Virus record (IMG/VR): IMGVR_UViG_3300010938_000009
Coordinates: 32,001-96,000 of that record
DNA: 64,000 nt
Direction: 5' to 3' (one strand)
Origin: a virus
Within the stretch, counting starts at the first letter, position 1; every line of letters begins with the position of its first letter. The notes under the pieces were generated by a model. It did no database searches. It had not been told where the DNA came from and was given only the letters and a program-made list of their open reading frames with translations. A program made the position numbers and the translations under genes. This document shows positions 2,965 to 56,563 of the stretch, in pieces.

Positions 2965-3039
2965 TGGTAGCGGTGGTAGGAATCGAACCTACTTTCTTCA
3001 GATTATGAGCCTGACGACTTACTACTTGTCCTCACCGCA
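2965..3039 (-). tRNA. tRNA-Met(CAT), initiator-like
   Basis: TGCGGTG/CACCGCT acceptor stem with U1-U72 mismatch, anticodon loop CT-CAT-AA, GGTTCGATTCC T-arm, encoded A-CCA end. Confidence 0.9.
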
Positions 3040-53466: not shown

Positions 53467-53534
53467 CCTCATAATAAGATACACGATGGACAGTAGAGCT
53501 GTTCGACCTGTTCCTTGAGAGGAAAGGAGGAAAA

Positions 53535-56500
53535 TTGAGTTTTAACCTAGGCGTGTCTAATCATCCAACGAGTAGATTAGGCGGATTAAGTTCTGTAGGG
53601 ATTTATCTTTACGAAGATATTTACTATAGACAGTGGATCAGTGAGATCGCCTTGGCCTTTTATGAAGGTGAATATATCGGCCTTCGCTTTAAGTAATTAA
53701 AGAGTTATGATGCGACAAGACGAATTAAGATAAGTTCGTCGGTAACGAAAGTTACAAAAATAATATAAATAACCACAAAATGTTATCTGGTTAGACTTAG
53801 AGTAAGACAGTTTCGTAATCCTGAGAAAATTTAAAAACTGTTTACTGAGTCTCTAAAATGGGGTGAATTGCTGGAAACTCCTAAAACTCACATAGCTACA
53901 AAGTAAATCGAAAGATTAAGCTTGACATGCTAGAGAATATGTGAGATACTCCTTAAAAGGTGTAATGGATAATCAGCAGCTAAGCGTAGTAGGGTTTAAG
54001 TTACTGCGAAAGTTCAACGACTAGAAGGTGAGTCCCAACAATAAGTCCTTCCTGAGAGTGCCCGATCCTGACCGAGTAAAGTCGAAGGATAAGATATAGT
54101 CTACTCCTATTTGAAAAAAGAGGTATATGATTAACGTAAAAAAATTAAAAAGTTCCGAATTAGATTCCGCCATATATGGTATGATTCTAGGTGATGGATG
54201 TATACAAATGGCTAGTTCTGGAAAAGGAAATAGCAATTTAAAAATAGGACATTCAATAAAACAAGAAGAGTATTTAAAATGGAAACAAGAGATTGTAAAT
54301 CAAATTGGAACGGTAAAAACTAGATTTTGGTATTATCAAAAACAAAACGCTTGTTATATAGAAACCAACACTAGAAACTACTTTACTAAATTAGAAAAAA
54401 TATTTTATATTAACAGAAAAAAAACTATTAATAAAAAAATATTGAATAAATTAACAGATTTATCTTTAGCTATATGGTTTTTAGATAATGGTTATATGAG
54501 TTATAATAAATCTGGTTCTGTTTACGGAGAACTCTGTACAGATCAATTTAGTTTAGAAAAAGTACAATTAATAAAAGATTGGTTTAAAATTAAATTTAAT
54601 ATGGAAGTTGGTATTAGAACTTTACGATATTTAAGCGGCAAACAAAAAGATACTATAGCTTATAGAATAAAGTTTAACAAAGAAAACTGTATTAAATTAA
54701 CAGAAATAATTAAACCTTATGTTAATCAAGTGAGTTGTATGCACTATAAATTATACGAGAATAAAATTGCTTCTCAGGCAGTAGAGAAATCTTCTGTGCA
54801 AAAATCTGTTATTGAAGCAACAGATACTACCACTTAATCTTACTAAAGAGATTATAGATGAAACCTCTATACTATATAGAGAAGATCCTATATATCAAGT
54901 AGTAGATGATAAGGGTAAGATATTAAAAAAAGATCAAGAATTATGGGAGCAAATCCAAAAGGATTCTCGCTACTTGACCTTTATGGACAAACTTGATAGA
55001 TGGGTACGACTACTAGGTACCGTACTAGTTAAAGTTTCTTTTGTAGATCCGCAGACTGGACTACTAGTAGATAAAAATAAAGAAGGTACTGTACAACTGG
55101 ATATGCTACATGGCGGCGTATACGATATAAGACATGGAGCTTCTCCCTACTATATTACAGAATTACTTATAGGTTTTGGCACTAAATTTGGAGGATTCAG
55201 AGAAAGATCTGGAACTCAAATTATAGGCGGATCACTTACAGGTAAATTACCTGATCCTAGTAGTATGGGGCAAGCCGACATAAAAACACGACAACGAATT
55301 GATTCTCCAGGACAATTAGGTTCAGTTAATAGAATTTATTGGAGTGCTCACTCACATTACGTTGAGGACGAAGATAGTAAGTATTACGAAACTAAAAATC
55401 CTTATGGAATAATTCCTGCTGTGCCGTTTTTTAATCAAGACCCAGCTCACTATTACTTTTTACCAATTAATGAACCTCTTATTTACGCTAATCATGCGAC
55501 TAATATGAGGATTACAGATTTGAATCATATTGCTAAGTTTCAATCGTTTGGAGTACCTGTAGTAAGTGGTATCGAAAGACCTACTTCACTAAGACAAGGT
55601 AGACCTGTAGACGATTTTAACGTATTAAAAGGTGGTACAGCTCAATCTAGATTTGGTGGAATTAGTGGTTTTGGAGCTAACGGACAATTTAGAACCTTTG
55701 ACCAAGGTTTAGGAGTAACAAGAGATGGAAACGCTGATGCTAATGCATTAGGTTTTTCTATTGGACCTGATACTGCTATAGCTGTTGGAGAAAAAGGGGA
55801 TTTTAGATTTGAACACCCTTCTGCAGATATTACAGGCTTAATTAAGGTTATACATAGTATAACTGATATGGTTAGAATTAACCACGGATTAAGACCTAAA
55901 TATGAAAATACATTACCTTCATCAGGTTTTGCATTATTAATGGAGAAGATTGGTGTTATAGAAAATAATATTAGAAGAGGTAAACTCTTTAAAGAAAGAG
56001 AAGAACAACTTTTCAATGTTATTAAGAATTTGTGGAATGTACATCATAATAAATCAGGAAGTAAAAGGTTTTCTGAAAAAGCTAAGTTAATTATAACTTA
56101 CGTTAATCCTAAATTTCCAGTTGACCCTAAAACTGAAAAAGAAGATATTATGATGGAAAGTAAAATAGTAGAAACTGGAGACAGAGCTGCTATTAAAAGA
56201 ATGTATCCACACATAAAAGAACCAGAAATAGATAAATTAATTATACAAGCAAGAAAAGATAAAGAAGAAAGATCCTTATTTGAAGCTGAACTTCAAGCCA
56301 AGGTTACTGAGATTATAGGACCTAAAGAAGATCCTAAAAATCCTGGAGCTAAACATAAATATTTAAGAAAATCTAAAGAAGCAGAAAGCGACAAAGAAAC
56401 TTATATTTATGAAGACGAAGACGGAAAAGAAAAAGAAGTCAAAAGATTAGATAAGAGTAAGGAAAAACTAGGTAAGCCTAAGATCGATAATAAAGCAAAA

Positions 56501-56563
56501 CACGCTGAAGAAAGTTCTAAGCAACCTGGTAAAAATGGTGATCCAAGAAGAAAAGAGGAGTAA
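53535..56563 (+). CDS. Portal protein, predicted spliced: join(53535-53669, 53713-53725, 53783-53798, 53801-53825, 54815-56563), 645 aa
   Basis: AGGAGG SD plus TTG at 53535; joined frame reads ...LAFYEG-RQDEF-IWLDL-VRQFRNPE-KQQILPLNLTKEIIDETS..., NPYGIIP, SGFAL; lies between TerL and scaffold. Confidence 0.8.
53670..53712 (+). ncRNA. Core-less group I-type mini-intron 1 (43 nt)
   Basis: P1 GAAGGU/GCCUUC ending in U.G; P10 CGA/UCG; CUUUAA-GUAA-UUAAAG hairpin; ends in G. Confidence 0.7.
53726..53782 (+). ncRNA. Core-less group I-type mini-intron 2 (57 nt)
   Basis: P1 GACGAAU/GUUCGUC ending in U.G; P10 UUAUCU/AGAUAA; GUAAC-GAAA-GUUAC hairpin; ends in G. Confidence 0.75.
53826..54814 (+). mobile_element. 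Group I intron (IA-like core) carrying a LAGLIDADG ORF
   Basis: P AAUUGCUGGAAA 53866-77, Q AAUCAGCAGC 53971-80, R GUUCAACGACUA 54012-23, S AAGAUAUAGUC 54091-101; P7 GACUA/UAGUC; exact ends inferred. Confidence 0.88.
54127..54837 (+). CDS. Intron-encoded LAGLIDADG homing endonuclease or maturase
   Basis: IYGMILGDG, HS.KQ.EYL.WK, LAIWFLDNG, CTD.FS, M.YK. Confidence 0.88.
   Translation: MINVKKLKSSELDSAIYGMILGDGCIQMASSGKGNSNLKIGHSIKQEEYLKWKQEIVNQIGTVKTRFWYYQKQNACYIETNTRNYFTKLEKIFYINRKKTINKKILNKLTDLSLAIWFLDNGYMSYNKSGSVYGELCTDQFSLEKVQLIKDWFKIKFNMEVGIRTLRYLSGKQKDTIAYRIKFNKENCIKLTEIIKPYVNQVSCMHYKLYENKIASQAVEKSSVQKSVIEATDTTT

What the first reader, a model, noticed from the sequence alone, without database searches (positions are those of the whole stretch)
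53535..54830. Portal gene split into five exons by four interruptions served by a single group I ribozyme core
Seen: an SD plus TTG at 53535 opens a frame ending FYEG(U53669). Portal-like coding continues only as short pieces at 53713-53725 (RQDE), 53783-53798 (FIWLD), 53801-53825 (LVRQFRNPE) and 54815 onward (KQQILPLN...). Joined, these give one uninterrupted 645-aa frame. Only one set of P/Q/R/S core elements exists (53866-54101). Each interruption ends in G, and the first three are flanked by a P1 helix ending in U.G at the exon's last U. Established: group I splicing needs P1 with U.G, a terminal omega-G and P10, and engineered group I ribozymes can perform trans excision-splicing. Inference: one ribozyme processes several core-less satellite introns to build an essential mRNA, a natural multi-site excision system I do not recognise as described.
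Basis: partly seen in the sequence, partly recalled or inferred. Interest (0 to 1): 0.97.

Follow-up and report, generated by a model that had tools for sequence, protein, structure and literature searches.

The report
Portal gene with core-less mini-introns
A phage's essential portal gene is broken by one complete self-splicing (group I) intron and three tiny intron remnants (43, 57 and 2 bases) that keep splice-site guides but have no catalytic part, so they most likely borrow the one ribozyme next door, which has not been shown for any natural intron.

Summary
Over 100 uninterrupted homologues read ...FYEG-RQDEF[IV]WLDLVRQFRNPE-KQQILP. The window encodes those 19 residues in three pieces, separated by 43 nt, 57 nt and 2 nt, and then by a 989-nt group I intron with a LAGLIDADG endonuclease. 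It is the only Rfam-detectable group I core in the 104-kb genome.

Each junction has a 10-13-bp guide complementary to the joined exons, and each insert ends in G. The 43-nt insert is a core-deleted copy of a full intron that relatives carry at the same site. The AG dinucleotide is bracketed by the big intron's own guide. A relative has a 6-nt insert at the equivalent place with the same geometry.

The big intron's own junction is guided by a second guide plus a GNRA hairpin at its 3' end, and the pair at its 5' splice site is G-C, not U.G. Mini-inserts occur only in portals that also carry this intron (3 of 6 against 0 of 53).

A contig from an RNA-seq-labelled run has all three small inserts precisely absent. 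It may be spliced RNA or a DNA allele. Splicing itself is not shown.

This scan noted similar core-less mini-introns in capsid genes of at least seven other phages. I found no paper describing this.

The parts
53535..53669 (+). Portal exon 1 (TTG start after AAGGAGG; 45 codons ending FYEG, last base U53669)
   Evidence: It is 84-96% identical to the N-termini of the relatives aligned.
53670..53712 (+). Mini-intron A, 43 nt. P1: exon GAAGGU 53664-69 with GCCUUC 53680-85 (U53669.G53680). P10: UCG 53677-79 with CGA 53713-15. P2: CUUUAA-GUAA-UUAAAG, 53687-53702. Terminal G53712. No core.
   Evidence: Its 5' half aligns with the 5' ends of the full-length site-1 introns of L004, L006, L012 and L081. 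The pairing fits each phage's own exon: GAAGGU with GCCUUC here, GAGGGU with GCCCUC in L004 and L012.
53713..53725 (+). Portal exon 2 (13 nt: RQDE plus the first base of the Phe codon)
   Evidence: The same 13 letters lie between the two sides of the joint in the X2 contig (table 5c).
53726..53782 (+). Mini-intron B, 57 nt. P1: GACGAAU 53719-25 with GUUCGUC 53734-40 (U53725.G53734). P10: AGAUAA 53728-33 with UUAUCU 53783-88. P2: GUAAC-GAAA-GUUAC, 53742-55. Terminal G53782. No core.
   Evidence: fold z = -3.2; P1 and P2 predicted. (13-bp guide; 0 of 2000 shuffles reach it). X1 DNA contig covers 53728-53879.
53783..53798 (+). Portal exon 3 (16 nt: the last two bases of the Phe codon, then IWLD, then the first two bases of the Leu codon)
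53799..53800 (+). Micro-intron C, the dinucleotide AG. It follows U53798 (U.G with G53847) and ends in G53800. It is bulged between P1 and P10 of the big intron's 5' guide.
   Evidence: Left unremoved, the frame reads LDLE followed by a stop. It is present in the X1 DNA contig and left out in the X2 contig (table 4).
53801..53825 (+). Portal exon 4 (25 nt: the last base of the Leu codon, then VRQFRNPE)
53826..54814 (+). Complete group I intron D, 989 nt, ending in G54814. The last exon base is G53825, paired G-C with the 3' guide (non-canonical).
   Evidence: Relatives L011, L019, L021, L030 and L087 carry homologous introns within 5 nt of this site.
53835..53852 (+). 5' guide next to the core. 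GAGUCU 53847-52 pairs with exon AGACUU 53793-98 (P1). UUUACU 53841-46 pairs with AGUAAG 53801-06 (P10). AAACUG 53835-40 extends the helix to CAGUUU 53808-13.
   Evidence: The homologous guides of L021 and L030 pair with the same Val-Arg-Gln codons, with compensating changes. In L087 the guide brackets a 6-nt insert.
53858..54123 (+). Ribozyme core (P3 to P9). It is the only group I core found in the 104-kb genome.
   Evidence: 74% mean column identity over six relatives. Only 2 private changes at positions where the other five agree.
54127..54837 (+). LAGLIDADG homing endonuclease ORF (236 aa). It lies after P9, overlaps the 3' guide module and ends 23 nt into exon 5.
   Evidence: PF03161, E = 8e-34; phrog_11023
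54767..54814 (+). 3'-terminal module of intron D. Guide 2, UUGCUU|CUCAGG (54767-78), is the exact complement of the joined CCUGAG^AAGCAA. It is followed by the hairpin CAGUAGA-GAAA-UCUUCUG (54779-96) and a tail ending in G54814.
   Evidence: The same module (guide, GNRA hairpin, 26-48 nt to the 3' splice site) is in all six relatives. The guides fit each phage's own junction: L021 CCAGAG with CUCUGG; L019 CCAGA with UCUGG; L030 AAUCCU with GGGAUU (U.G).
54815..56563 (+). Portal exon 5 (582 codons plus the stop)

Best explanation
The single portal gene of this uncultivated 104-kb phage carries one complete group I intron and three non-autonomous group I derivatives.

The parts:
- Intron D (53826-54814) has a ribozyme core and a LAGLIDADG homing endonuclease.
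- Mini-introns A (43 nt) and B (57 nt) are introns that lost P3-P9. They kept a substrate cassette: a P1 hairpin with U.G at the splice site, a P10 guide for the next exon, a GNRA-capped P2 and a terminal G.
- Micro-intron C (AG) has nothing of its own. It lies at the P1/P10 boundary of the guide that directly precedes D's core.

Proposed mechanism (inferred, not shown):
- On the pre-mRNA, D's core docks each P1-P2 cassette in turn and carries out the usual two transesterifications.
- C is removed as in engineered trans-excision-splicing.
- D's own junction is presented by a cassette of the same build, guide 2 plus a GAAA hairpin at the 3' end of the intron.
- So the core already works on a P1-P2 module that is not joined to it in the usual order.
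- Removing all four gives the 645-aa portal mRNA.

Proposed history (inferred):
- Neighbouring introns could lose their cores because D's core complemented them.
- The small inserts may travel with D by co-conversion of flanking exon sequence during homing.
For: Shown here:
1. The joined frame equals the consensus of more than 100 intact homologues.
2. Every junction has a guide spanning the joined exons, and each is rarely matched in shuffles. RNAfold recovers P1 and P2 of A and B.
3. A is homologous to the full introns that L004, L006, L012 and L081 carry at the same site. Its guide fits its own exon.
4. Independent cases in diverged phages:
   - L021 (36 nt) and L087 (34 nt) have a homologous mini-intron at QWI|T. 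It has a 13-bp guide, U.G and a terminal G.
   - The 3' halves of these two differ, but each pairs with its own 3' exon.
   - Their portals are only 66% identical.
   - L087 also has a 6-nt insert, AAAAUG. It follows a U that pairs U.G with that intron's core-adjacent guide. This parallels AG here.
5. Mini-inserts occur only where the site-2 intron is present. My conservative count is 3 of 6 against 0 of 53 distinct loci, which gives p of about 6e-4 (my own arithmetic). The script's own count gave 7.7e-5.
6. There is one core in the genome, and it is not degenerate.
7. The three strain differences seen (53564, 53567, 53816) all fall on third codon positions and are synonymous. A DNA contig of another strain keeps part of B and the AG.
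8. A 257-nt contig from a library labelled RNA-Seq cDNA has A, B and C precisely absent, with exon 2 intact between them, and runs on into D.

From the literature:
- Engineered group I ribozymes excise as little as one G, using P1, P10 and a terminal G (PMC2532722).
- They remove introns in trans (PMC4094466).
- They work with a guide supplied in trans (PMC2709566).
Against: - There is no unambiguous RNA evidence. The tool itself marks run X2 as 'RNA? (probably DNA)', so the joined contig may be a DNA allele without the inserts.
- Guides in A and B could simply be inherited from once-functional ancestors and say nothing about present function.
- AG is also a tandem duplication within UUAGAG, a common kind of mutation.
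- D's own 5' splice site has G-C, not the U.G that group I chemistry strongly prefers. In L011, L019 and L087 the pair is A-U. So even D's splicing is non-canonical and untested.
- Co-occurrence with D could come from co-conversion alone.
- The loci compared are not phylogenetically independent.
- No docking site for the GNRA loops was established.
Confidence: 0.6

Rival explanations
1. Defective allele. A, B and C are dead relics or mutations that are not removed. The portal gene of this genotype is broken, and the genome persists only briefly or with the help of co-infecting insert-free relatives.
For: - No RNA evidence is available.
- A joined, insert-free form exists, possibly as DNA (X2).
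- AG looks like a simple duplication.
- CheckV rates the record at 56% completeness.
Against: - Insert-bearing forms were assembled as the consensus in separate samples: the window and X1, L021/L078, and L087.
- All other coding sequence looked at is intact, including 582 open codons of exon 5.
- Differences between strains are synonymous.
- The mini-introns of L021 and L087 sit in portals only 66% identical. Their 3' halves have co-varied with their own exons.
- Two tiny inserts, in the window and in L087, each sit exactly after the U of a U.G pair and end in G.
- No insert is found in 53 loci that lack the site-2 intron.
Confidence: 0.15
2. The mini-introns are removed at the RNA level but not by D's core. 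They would self-splice with help from flanking exon structure, as claimed for the 67-nt fungal PaSSU intron, or be served by a protein or another RNA.
For: - PMC3160393 reports 56-81-nt degenerate group I introns with P1, P7, P10 and a pairing to the 3' exon. It cites in vitro splicing of the 67-nt PaSSU intron when long flanks are present.
- The L021 and L087 mini-introns also pair with their 3' exon.
Against: - No P7 or G-binding element is evident in A or B. After P1 and P2 only 10 and 27 nt remain.
- C (2 nt) cannot carry anything and is bracketed by D's guide.
- Mini-inserts are never seen without the site-2 intron.
Confidence: 0.15
3. The inserts stay in the mRNA and are overcome during translation, by bypassing as in T4 gene 60, by frameshifting, or by an altered genetic code.
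For: - The insert sizes (34-57 nt) resemble known bypass gaps.
- The three inserts sum to 102 nt, a multiple of three.
Against: - There are no matched take-off and landing codons. GGU is followed 43 nt later by AUG before CGA, and there is no GAA/GAG landing codon before exon 3.
- The in-frame stops are TAA (53694, 53766). From my own knowledge, TAA reassignment is not known in phages.
- The exon pieces lie in different frames.
- Translation offers no reason for P1/P10 guides with U.G and a terminal G.
Confidence: 0.03
4. Assembly or sequencing artefact.
For: The record is a metagenome-assembled genome. Graph bubbles between intron-plus and intron-minus alleles can give chimeric contigs.
Against: - The X1 contig from another run and strain carries part of B and the AG.
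- Analogous inserts occur in independent assemblies (L021/L078, L087).
- The inserts have an ordered group I anatomy, which an artefact would not produce.
Confidence: 0.02

Closest known systems
Phage group I introns with a remote 3' splice site and a homing endonuclease (T4 sunY/nrdD, td, nrdB; Rfam RF00028)
   Same: - The core (P3-P9) scores above Rfam's gathering threshold.
- An endonuclease ORF lies between the core and a 3' splice site about 700 nt away.
- The intron ends in G and has P10.
- It sits in a conserved stretch of an essential phage gene.
   Different: - The guide that pairs with D's own splice junction lies at the 3' end of the intron with a GNRA hairpin, not next to the 5' splice site.
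- The pair at the 5' splice site is G-C here and A-U in three relatives.
- The core-adjacent guide pairs with exon sequence 12-33 nt upstream of the junction.
- Comparison with sunY rests on my memory of Michel et al. 1992, which I could not fetch.
Small degenerate group I introns of fungal nuclear SSU rDNA (Phialophora PaSSU 63-75 nt; Arthonia; Porpidia; PMC3160393)
   Same: - Very short introns (56-81 nt) that keep P1 and P10 but lack most of the core.
[quoted passage not shown]
- They are thought to derive from larger introns by deletion.
   Different: - The fungal ones lie in rRNA genes and retain a putative P7.
- One of them (PaSSU) is reported to self-splice with long flanks, and it ends in U.
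- They are not tied to a neighbouring complete intron.
- Here the inserts are 2-57 nt, lie in a phage protein-coding gene, end in G, show no P7, and occur only beside a complete intron.
Engineered trans-excision-splicing ribozymes and 'spliceozymes' (PMC2532722, PMC4094466), and an Azoarcus ribozyme given its guide in trans (PMC2709566)
   Same: - A group I core removes an internal segment from a substrate held by P1 (the 5' exon ending in U) and P10 (the 3' exon).
- The segment ends in G and can be as short as one nucleotide.
- A guide can be supplied from outside the core.
   Different: - Those are laboratory constructs.
- Here the arrangement is natural.
- The ribozyme lies downstream on the same transcript.
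- Two of the substrates bring their own guide as a hairpin.
Core-less mini-introns noted by this scan in phage capsid genes (earlier notes e1-5906120, e1-6042029, e1-5964965 and others)
   Same: Inserts of 38-77 nt with P1, P10 and a terminal G but no core, always just upstream of a complete group I intron in an essential structural gene.
   Different: - Those are AI notes on other genomes, and I did not check them.
- This case is in a portal gene.
- It has three such elements before one core.
- It includes a 2-nt element served by the core's own guide.
- It shows the 3'-terminal guide module of the complete intron.
Group III and degenerate group II introns of Euglena plastids (from my own knowledge, not checked here)
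   Same: Shrunken introns that have lost catalytic domains and are presumed to depend on factors supplied in trans.
   Different: They belong to a different intron class with different chemistry, and they are in organelles.

Membership tests
Group I intron (Rfam RF00028): intron D | Conserved catalytic core (P3-P9 with the P/Q/R/S elements) | tested here: met
   - 57.7 bits against a gathering score of 50; E = 1e-13.
- Conserved across six relatives.
- Only 2 private changes.
Group I intron (Rfam RF00028): intron D | U.G wobble at the 5' splice site in P1 | tested here: not met
   - The junction fixed by the protein alignment is GAG|...G|AAG.
- G53825 pairs with C54773 of guide 2.
- L030 has U.G. 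L011, L019 and L087 have A-U.
Group I intron (Rfam RF00028): intron D | Terminal G and P10 pairing with the 3' exon | tested here: met
   G54814. UUGCUU 54767-72 pairs with AAGCAA 54815-20.
Group I intron (Rfam RF00028): intron D | Self-splicing with guanosine | not testable with these tools
   No usable RNA data. It needs in vitro transcription.
Group I intron: mini-introns A and B, micro-intron C | P1 with U.G, P10 and a terminal G | tested here: met
   A 7+3 bp, B 7+6 bp, C 6+6 bp. All have U.G at the last exon base and all end in G.
Group I intron: mini-introns A and B, micro-intron C | Own catalytic core (P3-P9, G-binding site) | tested here: not met
   - No Rfam hit other than D.
- After P1 and P2 only 10 nt (A) and 27 nt (B) remain.
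- C is 2 nt.
LAGLIDADG homing endonuclease | Match to the LAGLIDADG domain profile | tested here: met
   PF03161, E = 8e-34, residues 15-188. phrog_11023.
Phage portal protein | Portal fold or profile, and position in the head module | tested here: inconclusive
   - PF05133 is matched by only 4 of 28 homologues (best E = 1e-6).
- phrog_104 E = 0.014.
- The AlphaFold model is poor (pLDDT 48), yet the listed Foldseek hits through rank 49 are all phage or phage-satellite portal or portal-complex entries (best E = 6e-5).
- The gene lies between the large terminase and the major head protein.
- Taken together: very probably the portal.
Fungal small degenerate group I introns (PMC3160393) | P1, P7, P10 and a mid-intron pairing to the 3' exon; in nuclear SSU rDNA | tested here: not met
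   - P1 and P10 are present.
- A pairing to the 3' exon is present in the L021 and L087 mini-introns.
- No P7 was found.
- The host gene and organism differ.
Trans-excision-splicing (PMC2532722) | 5' exon ending in U held by P1, 3' exon held by P10, excised segment ending in G | tested here: met
   C: AGACUU|AG|AGUAAG against UUUACU|GAGUCU. L087: AUCUCGU|AAAAUG|ACGUCAA against UUGACU|GCGAGAU. This is a resemblance in geometry only. The reaction itself was not tested.
Programmed translational bypassing (T4 gene 60 type) | Matched take-off and landing codons flanking the gap | tested here: not met
   Read directly. There are no matching codons at any of the three inserts.

The most novel reading that the evidence does not exclude
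This is a natural multi-substrate group I 'spliceozyme'. One ribozyme core, itself inside an intron, accepts several separate P1-P2 guide cassettes: two core-less mini-introns and its own 3'-terminal cassette. With its own guide it also excises micro-introns of 2-6 nt, in the manner of trans-excision-splicing.

Neighbouring introns have decayed into non-autonomous satellites that depend on the core and hitch-hike with its homing endonuclease. That would be a group I counterpart of the proposed route from group II introns to a shared splicing machine.
Probability: 0.45. Interest if true: 0.92.

Novelty: new variant of a known kind. Interest (0 to 1): 0.85.

Why it matters
Group I introns are the textbook case of an RNA that splices itself. 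No natural group I intron is known to rely on another intron's ribozyme. Excision of a few nucleotides by P1/P10 guidance has only been engineered.

If these inserts are spliced by the neighbouring core, three things follow:
- Phages hold non-autonomous introns, that is, parasites of a parasite.
- A natural ribozyme works on several substrates.
- Gene finders will miscall essential phage genes as broken.

It would also give a small, testable system of about 1.4 kb of RNA, one core and four junctions. That system could show how a self-splicing intron turns into a shared splicing machine, and how far the U.G rule at the 5' splice site can be relaxed.

Tried and rejected
Contigs of truncated homologues and of the 90%-identical endonuclease P0122 could not be fetched.
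- tblastn of both portal parts against the annotated phage collection found nothing. The large terminase is at most 27% identical to any cultured phage, so the taxon and host are unknown. This is not a crAss-like assignment.
- Sequencing runs: no RNA holder is listed. Only three runs hold small shares of the stretch. Parts of the stretch without cover in X1-X3 are not evidence of anything.
- Exact patterns for the joined form and for mini-intron B were not found in viral contigs. The window's own record is left out of that collection.
- A search with the endonuclease in viral contigs only recovered L011, L019 and L020 again. The genome-contig scan gave 4 loci: three uninterrupted and one cut off by the contig end.
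- Exact look-up of the 53-aa N-terminal ORF: not in the protein collection.
- A guide for the extra nucleotide in L030/L023 was sought across the whole intron. The best was 8 bp, which is not convincing.
- A profile search of solved structures by sequence gave nothing. The AlphaFold model was of low confidence.
- Considered and rejected: an altered genetic code, translational bypassing or frameshifting, an assembly artefact, and a second portal copy elsewhere in the genome (one search finds only this one).
- I looked for a pairing between the invariant loop GUGAGUCCCAACAAUAA of the core and the tails before the 3' splice sites. Matches of 4-6 bp are possible but not consistent across relatives, so I dropped it.
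- Literature searches found no description of natural core-less group I introns in phages.
Full report
**What is in the sequence**

The window is part of a 104,283-bp virus record with direct terminal repeats, and it holds a single portal gene. A Shine-Dalgarno sequence and TTG at 53535 open a frame that reads ...ALAFYEG and then runs into junk and a TAA. A 583-codon frame from 54812 reads KQQILPLN... from 54815 onward.

The region in between contains:
- a group I intron core: Rfam RF00028, 53805-54123, 57.7 bits against a gathering score of 50. The whole-window scan at gathering threshold had missed it;
- a LAGLIDADG endonuclease ORF at 54127-54837 (PF03161, E = 8e-34).

**Is the gene a portal?**
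- It lies between the large terminase and the major head protein.
- 4 of 28 homologues match Pfam SPP1_portal.
- The AlphaFold model is weak (pLDDT 48), but the listed Foldseek hits through rank 49 are all portal or portal-complex entries.
- The large terminase is at most 27% identical to any cultured phage.

More than 100 homologues of 600-650 aa read ...FYEG-RQDEF[IV]WLDLVRQFRNPE-KQQILP... without interruption. The window encodes these 19 residues in three pieces: 53713-25, 53783-98 and 53801-25. They are separated by 43 nt (A, 53670-53712), 57 nt (B, 53726-53782) and 2 nt (C, AG at 53799-53800). The 989-nt intron D (53826-54814) follows. A spliced protein-to-DNA alignment finds exactly these blocks. 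The joined product is 645 aa.

**Anatomy of each interruption** (read, checked)

- Mini-intron A:
  - P1: GAAGGU with GCCUUC, with U53669.G53680.
  - P10: CGA with UCG.
  - A hairpin CUUUAA-GUAA-UUAAAG, and terminal G53712.
- Mini-intron B:
  - P1: GACGAAU with GUUCGUC, with U53725.G53734.
  - P10: UUAUCU with AGAUAA.
  - A hairpin GUAAC-GAAA-GUUAC, and terminal G53782.
- Micro-intron C:
  - It has no guide of its own.
  - The segment just 5' of D's core, UUUACU|GAGUCU (53841-52), pairs with AGACUU (P1, U53798.G53847) and AGUAAG (P10).
  - That leaves AG bulged, with G53800 as its last base.
- Intron D:
  - An earlier first-reader note (e1-6051060) pointed to UUGCUUCUCAGG at 54767-78.
  - I confirmed that it is the exact complement of the joined CCUGAG^AAGCAA.
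  - It is followed by the hairpin CAGUAGA-GAAA-UCUUCUG and a tail ending in G54814.
  - The pair at the 5' splice site is G53825-C54773, not U.G.

Each guide is rarely matched in 2000 dinucleotide shuffles: 5, 0, 7 and 4 of 2000 for A, B, C and D.

**Relatives**

I collected 95 related portal loci from virus, metagenome and genome collections. Of these, 59 are distinct and cover the region.

Most are uninterrupted. The interrupted ones fall into two groups:
- Full-length introns at FYEG|RQDE, the site of A: L004, L006, L012, L081 and L082 (872-917 nt).
- Full-length introns within 5 nt of D's site: L011, L019, L021, L030 and L087.

The 5' half of A aligns with the 5' ends of the site-1 introns. 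Its guide fits its own exon (GAAGGU with GCCUUC), while L004 and L012 have GAGGGU with GCCCUC. A is therefore a site-1 intron that has lost everything from P3 onward. Its P2 loop has changed from ACUUCG to the GNRA loop GUAA.

All six site-2 introns carry the 3'-terminal module: a guide, a GNRA-capped hairpin, and 26-48 nt to the 3' splice site. The guides fit each phage's own junction:
- L021: CCAGAG with CUCUGG.
- L019: CCAGA with UCUGG.
- L030: AAUCCU with GGGAUU, a canonical U.G.

The hairpin stems also co-vary. In four of the six, the core-adjacent guide pairs with the Val-Arg-Gln codons. L021 (GUUCGUCAAU with AUUGACGAAC) and L030 (GUACGUCAG with UUGACGUAC) show compensating changes between them.

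**Independent small inserts**

- L021 (identical to L078) has a 36-nt insert and L087 a 34-nt insert at QWI|T.
- Placed one base to the left, both follow a U in U.G and end in G. Both have the guide UCUGUA|GUCCACU, with 7 bp of P1 and 6 bp of P10.
- Their 3' halves differ, but each pairs with its own 3' exon: GGCGAUUU with AAAUCGCU, and UGCAAU with AUUGCA.
- These two portals are only 66% identical.
- L087 also has a 6-nt insert, AAAAUG. It contains an in-frame UGA and lies after a U that pairs U.G with that intron's core-adjacent guide (AUCUCGU with GCGAGAU), with P10 beyond it. This closely parallels AG in the window.
- With these joins, the window, L021 and L087 all give the consensus peptide.

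Small inserts are found only in loci that also have the site-2 intron. My conservative count is 3 of 6 against 0 of 53, for which I compute p of about 6e-4. The script's own count gave 7.7e-5.

The whole genome has no second group I core. The window's core has the fewest private changes of the six.

**Reads**

No run holds much of the stretch.
- A DNA contig of another strain (X1) covers 53728-53879. It includes part of B and the AG.
- A 257-nt contig from a library labelled 'METAGENOMIC RNA-Seq cDNA' (X2, depth 8.9) runs 53492-53669, then the 13 letters of exon 2, then 53783-53848 with 53799-53800 left out.
- So in X2 all three small inserts are precisely absent, while the first 23 nt of D are present.
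- The three strain differences seen are at third codon positions and are synonymous.

The tool marks X2 as 'RNA? (probably DNA)'. The contig is therefore either a splicing intermediate, with A, B and C removed and D still in place, or an insert-free DNA allele. Either way it confirms the junctions to the base.

**Interpretation**

The most economical reading is that A, B and C are non-autonomous group I elements, removed from the pre-mRNA by the only ribozyme available, D's core.

D already presents its own junction through a P1-P2 cassette that is not joined to the core in the usual order. A and B offer cassettes of the same build, and C sits in the core's own guide.

Engineered ribozymes show that each step is chemically feasible:
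- excision of a single G by P1, P10 and a terminal G (PMC2532722);
- removal of introns in trans (PMC4094466);
- a guide supplied in trans (PMC2709566).

What is inferred and not shown:
- that splicing happens at all;
- that D's core does it;
- that the GNRA loops dock on it;
- that a G-C splice site works.

Rivals and my odds:
- a defective allele, about 0.15;
- removal without D's core, as claimed for the 67-nt fungal PaSSU intron (PMC3160393), about 0.15;
- translational tricks, about 0.03;
- an artefact, about 0.02.

**Novelty**

I found no paper describing natural core-less group I introns in phages. The closest published things are the fungal degenerate introns and the engineered ribozymes.

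This scan's earlier notes report similar mini-introns upstream of complete introns in capsid genes of at least seven other phages. I did not check those notes. They suggest a recurring phenomenon.

This case adds:
- a portal gene as host;
- three dependent elements before one core;
- a 2-nt element served by the core's own guide, with a 6-nt parallel in L087;
- the 3'-terminal guide module;
- a joined contig from an RNA-seq-labelled run.

Noticed in passing
L030:3988-4010 and L023:395-420: Two contigs from sister samples carry one extra base in portal exon 5, AUUCU[G]ACCC, after their site-2 intron. It can be read as U|G|A, a possible 1-nt micro-intron, or as a frameshift. No convincing guide was found (best 8 bp).
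   Followed up: partly
window 54020-54050; alignment A3 columns 203-219: A 17-nt loop, GUGAGUCCCAACAAUAA, in a hairpin between P7 and the 3' strand of P3 is invariant in all six site-2 introns, while its stem co-varies. This suggests a tertiary contact, possibly the docking site for the cassettes or for the remote 3' end.
   Followed up: partly
window 53876-53884 and 53962-53967: CCUAAA and UAAUGG in the P5 region resemble the 11-nt GAAA-tetraloop receptor (CCUAAG/UAUGG). CC(U)UAAA is conserved in the relatives. This is a candidate receptor for the GAAA loops of the P2 hairpins. It is my own reading and is untested.
   Followed up: no
window 53805-54123: The group I intron scores above Rfam's gathering score when 1.6 kb is searched. 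It was not reported in the 64-kb scan at gathering threshold, so the speed filters dropped it. Whole-window scans can miss introns.
   Followed up: yes
window 54767-54837: The endonuclease ORF reads through guide 2, the GAAA hairpin and the 3' splice site, and stops 23 nt into exon 5. In L021 the ORF stops before the guide. A 90%-identical homologue (P0122) is 18 aa shorter.
   Followed up: no
L031:1401-2600: This relative's portal frame stops matching after residue 84-85, and about 950 nt intervene. This may be a further intron site in the same gene.
   Followed up: no
L098-L101: Contigs of 33-119 kb that carry this portal are binned into MAGs labelled Pseudobdellovibrionaceae, Saccharibacteria and Ignavibacteriaceae. 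This is probably mis-binned phage DNA and gives no reliable host.
   Followed up: no
window 2968-3039 (-): A tRNA gene (Rfam 57 bits), apparently with anticodon CAU.
   Followed up: no
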